From a virus (taxonomy: Duplodnaviria > Heunggongvirae > Uroviricota > Caudoviricetes): 11,573 nucleotides of DNA. The stretch is taken from the IMG/VR virus record IMGVR_UViG_2703718806_000003. One strand, given 5' to 3'. Under the pieces are notes generated by a model. The model had not been told where the DNA came from. It made no database searches and saw only the letters and a program-made list of their open reading frames with translations. The position numbers and the translations under genes were made by a program. Positions 3,110-7,852 of this stretch are shown piece after piece (within the stretch, counting starts at the first letter, position 1; every line of letters begins with the position of its first letter).

Positions 3110-3299
3110 ACTACAGGCGCTGCGTCAGGCGCGCCTTGATTTATTAACCGGTAAACGGGTGGTGTCTGTCCAGAAAGATGGTCGCAGAATTGAATATACG
3201 GCGGCTTCTCTGGATGAGCTTAACCGGGCGATCAATGATGCGGAGTCGGTACTGGGGACAACCCGACGTCGCCGTCGTCCGCTGGGAGTGAGGTTATGA
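3093..3299 (+). CDS. W: Head-tail joining / head completion protein (lambda gpW homologue), 68 aa
   Basis: Translation ...LTGKRVVSVQKDGRRIEYTAASLDEL... matches lambda gpW ([24 protein letters not shown]), which is also 68 aa. GGAGG at 3083-3087 sits 5 nt upstream of the ATG. The start overlaps the A stop. Confidence 0.93.
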   Translation: MVTVAELQALRQARLDLLTGKRVVSVQKDGRRIEYTAASLDELNRAINDAESVLGTTRRRRRPLGVRL

Positions 3300-4888
3300 A
3301 ACGAACGCCTGTCCTGATTGATGTGAACGGCGTTCCGCTTCGTGAGAGTCTCAGCTACAACGGGGGCGGCGCAGGATTTGGCGGGCAAATGGCGGAGTGG
3401 TTGCCACCGGCGCAGAGTGCCGATGCAGCCCTGCTGCCTGCGTTGCGTCTGGGGAATGCCCGGGCAGATGATCTGGTGCGCAATAACGGGATAGCGGCTA
3501 ATGCGGTGGCCCTGCATAAGGATCATATTGTCGGGCATATGTTTCTGATCAGCTACCGTCCGAACTGGCGCTGGCTGGGGATGCGGGAGACTGCGGCAAA
3601 AAGTTTTGTCGATGAGGTGGAGGCGGCCTGGTCGGAATACGCCGAAGGGATGTTTGGCGAGATCGACGTGGAAGGGAAACGCACGTTTACGGAATTTATC
3701 CGTGAAGGTGTGGGCGTTCATGCGTTTAACGGCGAAATCTTTGTGCAGCCGGTCTGGGATACGGAGAGCACGCAACTGTTTCGTACGCGTTTTAAAGCCG
3801 TGAGTCCGAAACGGGTGGACACGCCAGGACACGGTATGGGGAACCGTTTTCTGCGGGCCGGTGTGGAGGTCGATCGATATGGTCGTGCCGTTGCGTACCA
3901 TATCTGTGAGGATGATTTTCCGTTCTCTGGGAGTGGACGATGGGAACGGATCCCGCGTGAACTTCCCACCGGGCGTCCGGCCATGCTGCATATTTTCGAG
4001 CCGGTGGAGGACGGGCAGACCCGTGGGGCCAATCAGTTTTACAGCGTCATGGAACGGCTGAAGATGCTCGATTCCCTGCAGGCAACACAGCTTCAGTCGG
4101 CCATAGTGAAGGCGATGTATGCAGCGACGATTGAAAGTGACCTTGATACCGAAAAGGCCTTTGAATATATCGCCGGTGCGCCGCAGGGGCAGAAGGATAA
4201 TCCGCTTATTAATATTCTGGATAAGTTCTCCACCTGGTATGACACGAATAGCGTGACGCTGGGCGGTGTTAAAATTCCGCACCTTTTCCCCGGTGATGAT
4301 CTGAAACTTCAGACCGCGCAGGATTCAGACAATGGATTTTCGGCGCTTGAACAGGCGCTGCTGCGGTATATCGCCGCCGGTCTTGGCGTTTCCTACGAAC
4401 AGTTGTCTCGTGATTACTCGAAGGTCAGTTATTCAAGTGCCCGCGCATCCGCCAATGAGTCGTGGCGCTATTTTATGGGGCGGCGAAAATTTATTGCGTC
4501 CCGGCTGGCCACGCAGATGTTTTCCTGCTGGCTGGAAGAGGCACTTCTTCGGGGGATTATTCGTCCGCCACGGGCACGTTTTGATTTTTATCAGGCGCGA
4601 TCAGCCTGGTCACGGGCTGAGTGGATTGGAGCCGGAAGAATGGCCATTGACGGGCTCAAGGAGGTTCAGGAATCAGTGATGCGCATTGAGGCCGGACTGA
4701 GCACGTATGAGAAAGAGCTGGCGCTGATGGGCGAGGATTATCAGGACATTTTCCGCCAGCAGGTCAGGGAATCTGCAGAGCGGGAAAAAGCCGGACTCTC
4801 ACGTCCGGTGTGGATAGCGCAGGCGTATCAGCAGCAGATAGCGGAGAGTCGCAGGCCGGAAGAGGAGACAACACCACGTGAGACGTAA
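3296..4888 (+). CDS. B: Portal protein (lambda gpB homologue), 530 aa
   Basis: Position and size match lambda gpB (~533 aa). An ATGA start/stop overlap with W indicates translational coupling. The N-terminus MKRTPVLIDVNG... and the long uninterrupted ORF with enteric codon usage are consistent. Homology is judged by recall of the lambda B family and gene order. Confidence 0.93.
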   Translation: MKRTPVLIDVNGVPLRESLSYNGGGAGFGGQMAEWLPPAQSADAALLPALRLGNARADDLVRNNGIAANAVALHKDHIVGHMFLISYRPNWRWLGMRETAAKSFVDEVEAAWSEYAEGMFGEIDVEGKRTFTEFIREGVGVHAFNGEIFVQPVWDTESTQLFRTRFKAVSPKRVDTPGHGMGNRFLRAGVEVDRYGRAVAYHICEDDFPFSGSGRWERIPRELPTGRPAMLHIFEPVEDGQTRGANQFYSVMERLKMLDSLQATQLQSAIVKAMYAATIESDLDTEKAFEYIAGAPQGQKDNPLINILDKFSTWYDTNSVTLGGVKIPHLFPGDDLKLQTAQDSDNGFSALEQALLRYIAAGLGVSYEQLSRDYSKVSYSSARASANESWRYFMGRRKFIASRLATQMFSCWLEEALLRGIIRPPRARFDFYQARSAWSRAEWIGAGRMAIDGLKEVQESVMRIEAGLSTYEKELALMGEDYQDIFRQQVRESAEREKAGLSRPVWIAQAYQQQIAESRRPEEETTPRET

Positions 4889-6383
4889 TCTTTCACACAT
4901 TATTGCCGCAGCATTCAATGAACCGCTGCTTCTGGAGCCCGCCTATGCGCGGGTTTTCTTTTGCGCGCTCGGGCGCGAGATGGGGGCAGCAAGTCTTTCG
5001 GTACCACAACAGCAGGTACAGCTTGATGCTCCCGGAATGCTGGCTGAAACGGACGAGTACATGGCCGGAGGTAAACGACCGGCCCGTGTTTACCGGGTGG
5101 TGAACGGTATTGCTGTACTGCCGGTGACCGGCACGCTGGTGCACCGGCTGGGCGGTATGCGGCCATTTTCCGGAATGACAGGCTATGACGGCATTGTCGC
5201 CTGTCTTCAGCAGGCAATGGCAGATAGCCAGGTGCGGGGCGTACTGCTGGACATTGACAGTCCTGGCGGGCAGGCCGCCGGCGCGTTTGACTGCGCTGAC
5301 ATGATTTACCGCCTCCGTCAGCAGAAGCCGGTCTGGGCACTGTGCAATGACACGGCCTGTTCTGCAGCCATGCTGCTGGCGTCGGCCTGCTCCCGACGGC
5401 TGGTTACCCAGACATCCCGTATCGGCTCCATTGGCGTGATGATGAGCCATGTCAGCTATGCCGGTCATCTGGCGCAGGCCGGGGTGGATATCACGCTGAT
5501 TTATGCCGGGGCGCACAAGGTGGATGGCAATCAGTTTGAAGCCTTACCGGCAGAGGTGCGTCAGGACATGCAGCAGCGGGTTGATGCGGCGCACCGGATG
5601 TTTGCCGAAAAAGTGGCGATGTATACGGGGCTGTCTGTGGAAGCTGTCACGGGGACAGAGGCTGCCGTTTTTGAAGGTCAGTCCGCTATTAAGGCCGGAC
5701 TGGCGGATGAATTAATCAATGCGTCGGATGCCATCAGCGTGATGGCTGCGGCGCTGAACACTCATGATACAGGAGGCACTATGCCGCAATTAACTGCAAC
5801 GGAAGCTGCCGCGCAGGAGAACCAGCGAGTGATGGGGATCCTGACGTGTCAGGAAGCGAAAGGACGTGAACAGCTTGCCACGATGCTGGCAGGACAACAG
5901 GGCATGAGCATTGAACAGGCCCGGGCGATTCTGGCCGCGGCGGCACCACAGCAGCCGGTGGCATCCGCGCAGAGTGAAGCCGATCGCATTATGGCGTGTG
6001 AAGAAGCGAAAGGTCGTGAACAACTGGCGGCAACGCTGGCGGCGATGCCGGAGATGACGGTGGAAAAAGCCCGCCCGATCCTCGCTGCCTCACCGCAGGC
6101 GAATGCCGGGCCCTCACTTCGTGATCAGATCATGGCCCTGGATGAGGCAAAAGGGGCAGAAGCGCAGGCTGAAAAACTGGCGGCCTGCCCGGGAATGACC
6201 GTGGAGAACGCCCGGGCTGTGCTGGCTGCGGGATCAGGTAAGGCCGAACCGGTCTCTGCATCCACAACCGCCTTGTTTGAACATTTCATGGCGAACCATT
6301 CACCGGCAGCGGTACAGGGTGGCGTGTCACAGACGTCAGCAGACGGTGATGCGGACGTGAAAATGCTCATGGCCATGCCATGA
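4878..6383 (+). CDS. C: Head maturation protease / scaffold (lambda gpC homologue, S49 ClpP-like peptidase family), 501 aa, GTG start
   Basis: N-terminus ...AFNEPLLLEPAYARVFFCAL... is nearly identical to recalled lambda gpC (MAFNEPLMLEPAYARVFFCAL). Also matching are GIAVLPVTGTLV, MTGYDGI, GVLLDIDSPGG..AGAFDCADMI, KPVWAL.ND...SAA.LLASA.SRRLVTQT.R.GSIGVMM and LIYAGAHKVDGN. No in-frame ATG is available upstream of the conserved region; GTG 4878 is preceded by GAGGAG at 4862-4867. It is about 60 aa longer than lambda gpC (~439 aa) because of C-terminal repeats. Confidence 0.9.
   Translation: MRRNLSHIIAAAFNEPLLLEPAYARVFFCALGREMGAASLSVPQQQVQLDAPGMLAETDEYMAGGKRPARVYRVVNGIAVLPVTGTLVHRLGGMRPFSGMTGYDGIVACLQQAMADSQVRGVLLDIDSPGGQAAGAFDCADMIYRLRQQKPVWALCNDTACSAAMLLASACSRRLVTQTSRIGSIGVMMSHVSYAGHLAQAGVDITLIYAGAHKVDGNQFEALPAEVRQDMQQRVDAAHRMFAEKVAMYTGLSVEAVTGTEAAVFEGQSAIKAGLADELINASDAISVMAAALNTHDTGGTMPQLTATEAAAQENQRVMGILTCQEAKGREQLATMLAGQQGMSIEQARAILAAAAPQQPVASAQSEADRIMACEEAKGREQLAATLAAMPEMTVEKARPILAASPQANAGPSLRDQIMALDEAKGAEAQAEKLAACPGMTVENARAVLAAGSGKAEPVSASTTALFEHFMANHSPAAVQGGVSQTSADGDADVKMLMAMP
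5781..6383 (+). CDS. Nu3: Putative nested in-frame scaffolding protein (lambda gpNu3 analogue) translated from an internal start of C, ~200 aa
   Basis: A perfect AGGAGG at 5771-5776 sits 4 nt upstream of in-frame ATG 5781 inside C. In lambda, Nu3 is expressed from an internal in-frame start in the 3' part of C. The downstream sequence is Ala/Glu/Gln-rich and repetitive, typical of a scaffold. The internal start is inferred, not demonstrated. Confidence 0.55.
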   Translation: MPQLTATEAAAQENQRVMGILTCQEAKGREQLATMLAGQQGMSIEQARAILAAAAPQQPVASAQSEADRIMACEEAKGREQLAATLAAMPEMTVEKARPILAASPQANAGPSLRDQIMALDEAKGAEAQAEKLAACPGMTVENARAVLAAGSGKAEPVSASTTALFEHFMANHSPAAVQGGVSQTSADGDADVKMLMAMP

Positions 6384-6418
6384 AGTCAGTGCTGACATCA
6401 ATATGAGGTTTTTACAAA

Positions 6419-6766
6419 ATGGTGACGAAAACCATCACTGAACAGCGTGCGGAAGTACGTATTTTTGCCGGTAATGATCCGGCTCACACTGCCACAGGCA
6501 GCAGCGGGATTTCTTCTGCAACACCGGCTCTGACGCCCCTGATGCTGGATGAAGCCAGCGGGAAACTGGTGGTCTGGGACGGACAGAAAGCCGGTAGTGC
6601 GGTTGGCATACTGGTACTGCCGCTTGAAGGCACAGAGACGGTGCTGACCTATTACAAGTCGGGGACCTTTGCGACGGAGGCAATCCACTGGCCTGAAAGT
6701 GTGGATGAACACAAAAAGGCAAACGCCTTTGCTGGCAGTGCCCTGAGTCACGCGGCTCTGCCGTAA
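6419..6766 (+). CDS. D: Head decoration protein (lambda gpD homologue), 115 aa
   Basis: Translation contains DPAHTAT, TPLMLD, KLVVWDG, AVGIL, YYKSGTF, WPE and AFAGSA in the same order as lambda gpD (~110 aa). It lies between C and E as in lambda. Confidence 0.93.
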   Translation: MVTKTITEQRAEVRIFAGNDPAHTATGSSGISSATPALTPLMLDEASGKLVVWDGQKAGSAVGILVLPLEGTETVLTYYKSGTFATEAIHWPESVDEHKKANAFAGSALSHAALP

Positions 6767-6823: not shown

Positions 6824-7852
6824 ATGGGATTGTTTACGACCCGCCAGTTGCTCGGTTATACCGAACAAAAAGTGAAATTTCGTGCGCTGTTTCTGGAACT
6901 GTTTTTCCGCCGTACGGTGAATTTCCACACTGAAGAGGTGATGCTGGACAAAATTACCGGAAAAACGCCTGTGGCGGCCTATGTCTCCCCGGTCGTTGAA
7001 GGAAAAGTGTTGCGTCATCGTGGTGGTGAAACCCGTGTGTTACGTCCGGGCTATGTCAAGCCGAAACACGAATTTAATTACCAGCAGGCGGTTGAGCGCC
7101 TTCCTGGTGAAGATCCGACTCAACTGAACGATCAGACTTACCGCCGTCTGCGTATCATTACCGATAACCTCAAACAGGAAGAGCACGCGATTGTCCAGGT
7201 GGAAGAAATGCAGGCAGTAAATGCTGTGTTGTATGGCAAATACACCATGGAAGGAGACCAGTTCGAGAAAATTGAGGTCGATTTTGGCAGGTCGACGAAG
7301 AATAACATCACTCAGGGTAGTGGTAAGGAGTGGTCAAAACAGGATCGTGACACGTTCGATCCTACACATGATATTGATCTCTACTGCGACCAGGCCAGCG
7401 GTCTTGTGAATATTGCCATTATGGACGGTATCGTCTGGCGTCTGCTGAATGGCTTTAAGCTGTTCCGTGAAAAACTGGATACCCGTCGCGGCTCAAATTC
7501 ACAACTCGAAACGGCAGTGAAAGACCTGGGGGCGGTGGTGTCCTTCAAAGGGTATTACGGCGATCTGGCCATTGTGGTGGCGAAAACGTCTTATGTGGCA
7601 GAGGACGGTACCGAAAAACGTTATCTGCCGGAGGGCTCGCTGGTTCTGGGGAATACGGCAGCAGATGGCATTCGTTGTTACGGTGCCATTCAGGATGCGC
7701 AGGCGTTGTCCGAAGGTGTGGTGGCCTCTTCCCGTTATCCGAAACACTGGCAGACCGTGGGCGATCCGGCCCGTGAATTCACCATGACGCAGTCCGCGCC
7801 GCTGATGGTGTTGCCGGACCCGGATGAGTTTGTGGTGGTACAGGTGAAATAA
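6824..7852 (+). CDS. E: Major capsid protein (lambda gpE homologue), 342 aa
   Basis: Translation contains YVSPVVEG, PGYVKPKHE, RRLRII, AIVQVEEMQAVNAVLYGKYTMEGD, LDTRRGSNSQLETAVKDLG, GDLAIVV and GDPAREFTMTQSAPLMVLPDPDEFVVVQ, closely matching recalled lambda gpE (~341 aa). An AAAGGA ribosome-binding site lies upstream of ATG 6824. Confidence 0.95.
   Translation: MGLFTTRQLLGYTEQKVKFRALFLELFFRRTVNFHTEEVMLDKITGKTPVAAYVSPVVEGKVLRHRGGETRVLRPGYVKPKHEFNYQQAVERLPGEDPTQLNDQTYRRLRIITDNLKQEEHAIVQVEEMQAVNAVLYGKYTMEGDQFEKIEVDFGRSTKNNITQGSGKEWSKQDRDTFDPTHDIDLYCDQASGLVNIAIMDGIVWRLLNGFKLFREKLDTRRGSNSQLETAVKDLGAVVSFKGYYGDLAIVVAKTSYVAEDGTEKRYLPEGSLVLGNTAADGIRCYGAIQDAQALSEGVVASSRYPKHWQTVGDPAREFTMTQSAPLMVLPDPDEFVVVQVK

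What the first reader, a model, noticed from the sequence alone, without database searches (positions are those of the whole stretch)
5771..5783. Strong internal Shine-Dalgarno and in-frame ATG inside C mark a nested scaffold gene
A perfect AGGAGG (5771-5776) lies 4 nt upstream of in-frame ATG 5781, about 300 codons into C. This is the arrangement expected for a Nu3-type scaffold expressed as an N-terminally truncated in-frame product of the protease gene. The predicted product (~200 aa) would be larger than lambda Nu3 because of the repeats. The 4-nt spacing is slightly short, so the site is plausible but not certain.
Basis: partly seen in the sequence, partly recalled or inferred. Interest (0 to 1): 0.4.

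Follow-up and report, generated by a model that had tools for sequence, protein, structure and literature searches.

The report
Known nested scaffold gene start in phage protease gene
The ribosome-binding site and in-frame ATG inside the head-protease gene are real and strongly conserved, and they start the nested scaffolding-protein gene already annotated as gene 6 in phage 21, so the finding is correct but ordinary.

Summary
AGGAGG lies at 5771-5776, followed by a 4-nt spacer and ATG 5781. The ATG is in frame as codon 302 of the 501-codon C-type gene (4878-6383).

The window is a phage-21-like lambdoid head operon, 96% identical to phage 21. Both phage 21 GenBank records already annotate this ATG and its ribosome-binding site as gene 6, a 200-aa scaffolding protein with three "Tri" repeats.

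Within the window the motif is barely above chance; conservation is what makes it convincing. In 18 divergent lineages of C homologues the variable linker after the S49 protease domain always carries GGAG(G/T/A)-N4-ATG. The first glycine codon is always GGA, and the second codon can change amino acid while keeping its G. The site is the best in-frame internal start in 27 of 31 genes.

One twist concerns lambda. GenBank and RefSeq place nu3 at 5132 (201 aa), which aligns with a non-start GTT codon here and lies inside the protease fold. Lambda carries the same AGGAGG-N4-ATG at 5332-5344, which would give a 131-aa product. N15 and phi80 annotate the equivalent start.

Verdict: interpretation supported, already known, low interest.

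The parts
4878..6383 (+). Outer gene (lambda C / phage 21 gene 5 type): S49 prohead protease fused to a C-terminal scaffold domain, 501 aa, GTG start overlapping the end of the portal gene
   Evidence: ORF list and translation. 96% DNA identity to phage 21 gene 5. 53% protein identity to lambda C. The exact protein is in public databases as E. coli 'S49 family peptidase'.
5109..5756 (+). S49 / SppA-like protease domain (C residues about 78-293)
   Evidence: Pfam PF01343 at residues 146-293, E=4e-36. TIGR00706 SppA_dom at residues 78-290. The solved SppA structure 3RST aligns to lambda C 81-298.
5757..5780 (+). Short variable linker between the protease domain and the scaffold part; it contains the SD
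   Evidence: The amino-acid sequence here is highly variable among homologues except G-(G/V/E)-x-M.
5771..5776 (+). Shine-Dalgarno AGGAGG, written across codons acA GGA GGc (Thr-Gly-Gly of C)
   Evidence: Sequence. Predicted anti-SD duplex of -10.3 kcal/mol, the best of 42 in-frame internal start candidates. GGAG conserved in 17-18/18 lineages and the GGA codon in 17/17. Annotated as a ribosome-binding site in the phage 21 records.
5781..5783 (+). In-frame internal ATG (codon 302 of C), start of the nested gene
   Evidence: ATG present in 18/18 lineages. Equivalent to the annotated starts of phage 21 gene 6, N15 gene 6 and phi80 gp6.
5781..6383 (+). Nested gene (phage 21 gene 6 / Nu3 type): scaffolding protein, 200 aa, identical to the C-terminal 40% of C
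   Evidence: 95.5% identical to phage 21 gp6. Hits PHROG 8399 'head scaffolding protein'. No Pfam or NCBIfam model and no solved structure.
5826..5954 (+). Tri repeat 1 of the scaffold (RVMGILTCQEAKGREQLATMLAGQQGMSIEQARAILAAAAPQQ)
   Evidence: Protein self-comparison. Overlaps the Tri1 box of M81255.1.
5976..6104 (+). Tri repeat 2
   Evidence: 49% identical to repeat 1 and 53% to the single lambda copy. Corresponds to the Tri box of M81255.1.
6117..6245 (+). Tri repeat 3
   Evidence: Corresponds to the Tri3 box of M81255.1.

Best explanation
The site is the translation start of a nested scaffolding-protein gene, the phage 21 gene 6 / lambda Nu3 analogue.

Shown:
- The window is a phage-21-type head operon.
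- The outer gene encodes an S49 protease domain (residues about 78-293), then a short linker, then a scaffold part with three helical 'Tri' repeats.
- A strong SD (AGGAGG) followed by ATG sits in the linker.
- That SD-ATG is conserved at the nucleotide level across the whole family.

Inferred:
- On the late polycistronic mRNA, ribosomes initiate independently at ATG 5781. This yields a 200-aa protein identical to the C-terminal 40% of the protease.
- That protein co-polymerises with the major capsid protein as the internal scaffold.
- The few full-length C molecules enter the procapsid through the same C-terminal domain and later digest the scaffold.
- The stronger internal start (ATG with AGGAGG, against GTG for C) would give the excess of scaffold over protease.
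For: 1. Identity of the locus. The window is 96% identical to phage 21. M81255.1 and OL657228.1 annotate a ribosome-binding site and CDS 'gene 6 / scaffolding protein' at exactly the homologous ATG. Gene order is portal, C, D(shp), E.

2. Domain logic. The protease domain ends at about residue 293 (Pfam; TIGR00706; SppA structure alignment). The start follows 9 residues later.

3. Nucleotide-level conservation in 18 lineages at 46-100% protein identity. Positions -9 to -6 are GGAG in 17-18/18, and the ATG is present in 18/18. Flanking positions carry about 0.1-0.9 bits. Codon -3 is GGA in 17/17, although GGA is only 14.2% of glycine codons in these genes. The binomial probability is 6e-14, or 3e-9 if only 10 lineages are treated as independent. 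Codon -2 can be Gly, Val (GTA/GTC) or Glu (GAA), so the G is kept while the amino acid is not.

4. Unbiased scan. The aligned site has the best (or tied-best) SD among all in-frame internal ATG/GTG/TTG codons in 27 of 31 genes. In the window it ranks 2nd of 42 for local mRNA accessibility.

5. Polymorphism among close relatives. The 13-mer is invariant in 62/62 distinct genes, next to polymorphic codons.

6. Independent annotation of the equivalent start. N15 gene 6 is a 137-aa 'head scaffolding protein' with an 'internal in-frame translational start'. phi80 gp6 is annotated the same way. PHROG 8399 'head scaffolding protein' has a 131-position profile that the lambda 131-aa product matches end to end.

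7. Expression. No sigma-70-like promoter lies upstream on the + strand. The nested start (-10.3 kcal/mol, ATG) is stronger than C's own start (-9.1 kcal/mol, GTG).
Against: - No expression data were available here: no ribosome profiling and no N-terminal sequence for this element or for phage 21 gp6.
- The within-window statistics are weak.
- The 4-nt spacing is at the short end of what works in E. coli (from memory of Chen et al. 1994).
- GenBank and RefSeq place lambda's nu3 at a different, non-equivalent codon. Another lambda-derived record uses a third position. So database annotation of the family is not unanimous.
- A structure prediction intended to confirm the domain boundary failed (mean pLDDT 34.7).
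Confidence: 0.93

Rival explanations
1. The G-G-x-M motif is conserved for protein reasons, such as a flexible hinge or an autoproteolytic cleavage site between protease and scaffold domains. On this view the free scaffold arises by cleavage of full-length C, not by internal initiation.
For: Gly-Gly is typical of linkers and the motif sits at a domain boundary. gpC-type proteases do process themselves and the scaffold (established knowledge of lambda; not tested here).
Against: Conservation is at the nucleotide level rather than the amino-acid level. GGA is used in 17/17 lineages against a 14% expectation. Gly is replaced by Val or Glu while GGAG is kept. A cleavage site would not require an ATG at a fixed 4-nt distance.
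Confidence: 0.03
2. The nested product starts at another in-frame codon. The candidates are GTG 5829 or ATG 5832 (preceded by CAGGAG), an upstream ATG near 5568, or the codon equivalent to the GenBank lambda nu3 start.
For: GTG 5829 and ATG 5832 have a moderate SD (-7.4 kcal/mol). ATG 5568 (codon 231) has no SD in the window's top three. GenBank and RefSeq place lambda nu3 at C codon 239.
Against: The lambda-5132 equivalent is GTT here. It is Ile or Val in 19 of 25 distinct homologue contexts, and it lies inside the protease fold. The 5829/5832 SD is present only in the 21-like group. None of these sites rivals 5781 in SD strength or conservation.
Confidence: 0.03
3. The SD-like hexamer plus ATG is a chance occurrence with no function in this element.
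For: AGGAGG frequency in the window is at chance (5 against 4.6). The 13-mer pattern appears in 10% of shuffles.
Against: The motif is conserved across 18 lineages and 62 close relatives. It is the top-ranked internal start in 27/31 genes.
Confidence: 0.01

Closest known systems
Phage 21 genes 5 and 6 (GenBank M81255.1, head gene operon; OL657228.1, complete genome)
   Same: 96% DNA identity. The C gene has the same length (501 aa). The nested start is the same ATG with the same GGAGG-CACT-ATG, giving the same 200-aa product with three Tri boxes.
   Different: About 4.5% amino-acid differences in the nested product. The three codons just upstream of the SD's leading A differ (ACT CAT GAT against AGT AAT GTC); the codon carrying that A also differs (ACA against AGA) but keeps its final A. 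Other parts of the window, such as the Nu1 region, diverge more.
Lambda C / Nu3 (overlap described by Shaw & Murialdo 1980, listed as a reference in PMC8508860)
   Same: Same operon position, the same S49 protease with a C-terminal scaffold, 53% identity, and the identical AGGAGG-N4-ATG in the post-protease linker at lambda 5332-5344.
   Different: Lambda has one repeat, not three. The product from the homologous start is 131 aa (13.4 kDa), against 200 aa here. GenBank and RefSeq annotate nu3 at 5132 (201 aa), a non-homologous position inside the protease domain.
N15 genes 5/6 and phi80 gp5/gp6
   Same: The nested scaffold is annotated at the equivalent GGAGG-N4-ATG. The N15 record states 'internal in-frame translational start within gene 5'.
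   Different: The products are 137 aa with a single repeat and a long Ala/Thr/Gln-rich spacer. Identity in C is about 51%.
Herpesvirus protease/scaffold nested genes (HSV UL26/UL26.5) and phage Mu I/Z (from memory, not tested)
   Same: The logic is the same. The scaffold is an in-frame C-terminal subset of the maturation protease, so the protease is carried into the procapsid by a scaffold domain.
   Different: Herpesvirus proteases (assemblin) have an unrelated fold, and UL26.5 has its own promoter and transcript. Here the protease is S49, no internal promoter-like site was seen, and expression is inferred to be by internal translation initiation.

Membership tests
Lambda-type nested protease/scaffold pair (lambda C/Nu3, phage 21 5/6, N15 5/6) | The outer gene encodes an N-terminal S49 (SppA-like) prohead protease | tested here: met
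   PF01343 E=4.4e-36 at residues 146-293. TIGR00706 at residues 78-290. 53% identity to lambda C.
Lambda-type nested protease/scaffold pair (lambda C/Nu3, phage 21 5/6, N15 5/6) | Position in the head operon between the portal gene and the decoration and major capsid genes | tested here: met
   The ORF order in the window matches the phage 21 map: portal 3296-4888, C 4878-6383, D/shp 6419-6766, E 6824-7852.
Lambda-type nested protease/scaffold pair (lambda C/Nu3, phage 21 5/6, N15 5/6) | An in-frame internal SD plus start codon just downstream of the protease domain | tested here: met
   AGGAGG-CACT-ATG at 5771-5783, codon 302. Conserved in 18 lineages.
Lambda-type nested protease/scaffold pair (lambda C/Nu3, phage 21 5/6, N15 5/6) | The nested product is homologous to annotated scaffolding proteins | tested here: met
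   95.5% identity to phage 21 gp6. The repeat is 47-53% identical to the lambda Nu3 repeat. PHROG 8399 'head scaffolding protein' E=1.5e-34.
Lambda-type nested protease/scaffold pair (lambda C/Nu3, phage 21 5/6, N15 5/6) | The nested product is actually translated, is present in proheads and is absent from mature heads | not testable with these tools
   No expression or proteomic data were accessible. Literature on the mapped Nu3 N-terminus is not held in the library.
Herpesvirus-type UL26/UL26.5 nested protease/scaffold | Assemblin (S21) protease fold and a separate promoter for the nested gene | tested here: not met
   The protease is S49, not S21. No promoter-like site lies upstream of 5781 on the + strand. 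This is a functional analogy only.

The most novel reading that the evidence does not exclude
The strictly fixed geometry may be more than a start signal. The features are GGA as the first glycine codon, a 4-nt spacer and a position 9 residues after the protease fold. This could be a tuned, deliberately sub-optimal initiation site that sets the scaffold:protease ratio. As an in-ORF SD it might also pause ribosomes translating full-length C just as the protease domain has emerged, which would aid its folding. Separately, the comparative data imply that the reference GenBank/RefSeq lambda nu3 CDS (5132..5737, 201 aa) is mis-assigned, and that the family-wide start corresponds to lambda 5342 (131 aa). 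Specialists probably already accept this.
Probability: 0.12. Interest if true: 0.3.

Novelty: already known. Interest (0 to 1): 0.1.

Why it matters
It matters little for discovery. The nested gene has been annotated in phage 21 since the M81255 record, and the C/Nu3 overlap is textbook lambda biology.

It has practical value for annotation:
- The segment occurs in 1870 of 5426 complete E. coli genomes. RefSeq labels it only 'S49 family peptidase', with no nested scaffold CDS.
- The reference lambda records place nu3 at a codon that is not conserved and that cuts the protease fold.
- The conserved GGAG-N5-ATG rule offers a simple, testable criterion for annotating scaffold genes in lambda-like prophages.

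Tried and rejected
1. Literature. I looked for the experimentally mapped Nu3 N-terminus: full-text searches and attempts to open Medina 2010/2011, Liu 2013 and Casjens & Hendrix 2015. None of these papers is held. The papers that could be read mention Nu3 only in general terms. My recollection is that purified gpNu3 is about 13.4 kDa (Ziegelhoffer et al. 1992, Catalano lab). This matches the 13,394 Da computed for the lambda 131-aa product, but it remains memory, not a tool result.

2. AlphaFold2 of full-length C, run with a shallow 15-sequence alignment, gave mean pLDDT 34.7. It is unusable and no fold search was done.

3. Tandem Repeats Finder did not detect the Tri repeats at the DNA level. 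They are visible only at the protein level.

4. The IMG/VR scan returned only relatives at 96% identity or more.

5. A perfect CII-box pattern (TTGC-N6-TTGC) lies on the minus strand at 5786-5799 and is annotated by pattern in the phage 21 record. It is at chance frequency (1 against 0.67 expected) and is not conserved outside the 21-like group. I rejected it as a feature.

6. An internal promoter as an alternative way to express the nested gene: no promoter-like site was found upstream.

7. The stand-alone proteins of about 110-200 aa in the representative search could be nested-ORF calls or genuinely separate scaffold genes. Their genomic context could not be retrieved with the permitted tools.

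Full report
**Observation.** The sequence at 5770-5783 is c-AGGAGG-CACT-ATG. AGGAGG occupies 5771-5776 and the ATG 5781-5783. The ATG is in frame with the ORF 4878..6383 (GTG start, 501 aa) as codon 302. The coordinates, the 4-nt spacing and 'about 300 codons into C' are all correct. The nested product is 200 aa, 20.5 kDa, pI 4.8. Within the window the motif is hardly remarkable. AGGAGG occurs 5 times against 4.6 expected. AGGAGGNNNNATG occurs once against 0.10 expected, and 10% of shuffles contain one. Its significance has to come from comparison.

**What the locus is.** The region 4800-6500 is 96% identical to phage 21 and to many E. coli lambdoid phages. Gene order in the window follows the phage 21 map: terminase small and large subunits, W, portal, C, D/shp, E, FI, FII, Z, U, V, G/GT, H. 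Both phage 21 records already annotate the feature. These are M81255.1 ('Bacteriophage 21 head gene operon') and OL657228.1 (complete genome). Each has a ribosome-binding site and a CDS for gene 6 ('head-tail preconnector gp6' / 'scaffolding protein'). That CDS starts at locus position 1282, which maps to window 5781. The older record also annotates three 'Tri' repeat boxes. The nested product is 95.5% identical to phage 21 gp6. The finding is therefore a rediscovery of an annotated gene.

**Domain logic.**
- Pfam places the S49 peptidase domain at residues 146-293.
- TIGR00706 (SppA domain) covers residues 78-290.
- The crystallised B. subtilis SppA domain (3RST) aligns with lambda C residues 81-298.
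- The nested start at residue 302 is thus 9 residues beyond the end of the protease fold, in a short and highly variable linker.
- The remainder has no Pfam or NCBIfam model and no solved relative.
- It hits PHROG 8399 'head scaffolding protein'.
- It contains three 43-residue repeats, 42-53% identical to each other and 47-53% identical to the single copy in lambda.

**Comparison with lambda: the twist.** GenBank J02459 and RefSeq NC_001416 annotate nu3 at 5132..5737 (201 aa). In the alignment that start (C Met239) falls opposite Val235 of the window, encoded by GTT, which is not a start codon. Across homologues this column is Ile or Val (ATT, ATC, ATA, GTT) in 19 of 25 distinct contexts. It lies inside the protease fold. 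The window's ATG 5781 aligns instead with lambda C Met309 (lambda 5342), which is preceded by tcAGGAGGgcgaATG, the same hexamer with the same 4-nt spacer. The product from that start is 131 aa and 13,394 Da.

Other annotation agrees with this site:
- N15 gene 6 (137 aa, 'internal in-frame translational start within gene 5, assigned by similarity with lambda') uses the equivalent site.
- phi80 gp6 does the same.
- PHROG 8399 has a 131-position profile that the lambda 131-aa product matches end to end.
- The phage 434 record keeps 5131 but carries a note beginning 'real Nu3 start ...', truncated in the output.
- A lambda imm21 record uses yet another codon.

From memory, purified gpNu3 was reported as about 13.4 kDa. 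I could not verify this in the paper library. It is right against the homologous start (131 aa, one repeat against three).

**Conservation test.** A scan of one genome per species returned 60 loci. After removing duplicates and lambda contaminants, 31 C genes were aligned. Grouping by local context gave 18 lineages, at 46-100% protein identity to the window's C. They come from Escherichia, Salmonella Gifsy-1, Trabulsiella, Providencia, Enterobacter, Kluyvera, Dryocola, Pluralibacter, Klebsiella, Phytobacter, Erwinia, Serratia, Pseudocitrobacter, Cedecea and an Aeromonadaceae MAG.

- Relative to the A of the ATG, positions -9 to -6 read GGAG in 17-18 of 18 lineages and the ATG is present in 18 of 18. 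Neighbouring positions carry only about 0.1-0.9 bits.
- Codon -3 is GGA in 17 of 17 lineages, with 16 different flanking-codon combinations. GGA is only 14.2% of glycine codons in these genes. The binomial probability is 6e-14, or 3e-9 if only ten lineages are independent.
- Codon -2 can be Gly, Val (GTA, GTC) or Glu (GAA). The nucleotide G is preserved while the amino acid is not.
- Providencia has GAGG-N5-ATG two codons upstream.
- In a scan of all in-frame internal ATG/GTG/TTG codons, the aligned site has the best (or tied-best) anti-SD duplex energy in 27 of 31 genes.
- Among 62 distinct close-relative genes from IMG/VR, the 13-mer is invariant although the three codons just upstream are polymorphic.
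- In the window the site ranks 2nd of 42 for local mRNA accessibility.

This is selection on an RNA signal, not on a peptide motif.

**Mechanism.**
- Shown: a strong, conserved SD-ATG at the protease/scaffold boundary, and homology of the downstream part to annotated scaffolds.
- Inferred: independent initiation at 5781 on the late polycistronic mRNA. No sigma-70-like promoter lies upstream.
- Inferred: this gives a free scaffold identical to the C-terminal 40% of the protease.
- Inferred: the nested start (ATG, -10.3 kcal/mol) is stronger than C's own start (GTG, -9.1 kcal/mol). This fits the need for many scaffold copies per few protease copies.
- Inferred: the shared C-terminal domain would carry the protease into the procapsid, as in the analogous herpesvirus UL26/UL26.5 arrangement (from memory).

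**Rivals.**
- A protein-level hinge or cleavage motif is contradicted by the codon-level pattern.
- The alternative starts are not conserved: 5829/5832 with CAGGAG, 5568, and the GTT opposite lambda 5132.
- Chance is excluded by conservation.

**What did not work.**
- AlphaFold2 with a shallow alignment failed (pLDDT 34.7).
- TRF missed the diverged repeats.
- The key primary papers are not in the library.
- The context of the stand-alone 110-200-aa relatives could not be fetched.

**Verdict.** The feature is already known as phage 21 gene 6. The comparative result strengthens the assignment. It also shows that the reference lambda nu3 coordinates are not the family-wide start. RefSeq annotation of the segment in 1870 of 5426 complete E. 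coli genomes lacks the nested CDS altogether. Interest is low.

Noticed in passing
L003 (lambda NC_001416) 833 against 1033-1045, i.e. lambda 5132 against 5332-5344: GenBank and RefSeq annotate lambda nu3 at 5132 (201 aa). That codon lies inside the S49 protease fold and is Ile or Val in most homologues. The family-wide conserved AGGAGG-N4-ATG is at lambda 5332-5344 and would give a 131-aa, 13.4-kDa product. Other records disagree: N15 and phi80 use the conserved site, phage 434 carries a 'real Nu3 start ...' note, and lambda imm21 uses a third codon.
   Followed up: yes
window 5826-6245; proteins P0002, P0016, P0093, P0094, P0116 (alignment A2): The number of 'Tri' scaffold repeats varies among otherwise near-identical E. 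coli prophage C genes. There are about 2 copies in the 451-452-aa variants, 3 in the 501-aa form and 4 in the 551-aa form, with junctions in register. This suggests unequal recombination between repeats. Lambda, N15 and phi80 have one copy.
   Followed up: partly
proteins P0001 (657 aa) and P0088 (721 aa): Two odd C variants were seen. One has an internal duplication that repeats the end of the protease domain and a second GGTM start. The other is fused at its C-terminus to unrelated, tail-fibre-like sequence. They may be recombinants or assembly artefacts.
   Followed up: no
window 5786-5799, minus strand: A perfect CII-box pattern, TTGCAGTTAATTGC, lies immediately after the nested ATG and is annotated by pattern in the phage 21 record OL657228.1. 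It is at chance frequency (1 against 0.67 expected) and is not conserved in Gifsy-1 or lambda.
   Followed up: partly
window 5500-6383: This segment is present at 80% identity or more in 1870 of 5426 complete E. coli genomes, with up to 5 places per genome. RefSeq annotates it only as 'S49 family peptidase', with no nested scaffold CDS.
   Followed up: partly
window about 1-660 and 661-1209: By offset to phage 21 (+472), the cos site should lie near window 473, so the window runs across cos as in a prophage or a circular assembly. The Nu1/terminase-small start region is much more diverged from phage 21 (22 of 50 mismatches) than the head genes (0-5 of 50), which indicates mosaicism.
   Followed up: no
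proteins P0196-P0293: Distant relatives of the scaffold repeat occur as proteins of about 119-141 aa. They begin MS.../MT..., continue with a low-complexity spacer and contain one repeat, like the lambda 131-aa product. It is unknown whether they are separate genes or gene-caller calls of nested ORFs. One distant fusion (P0210) shows GGVFM, i.e. Gly-Gly with a spacer one codon longer.
   Followed up: no
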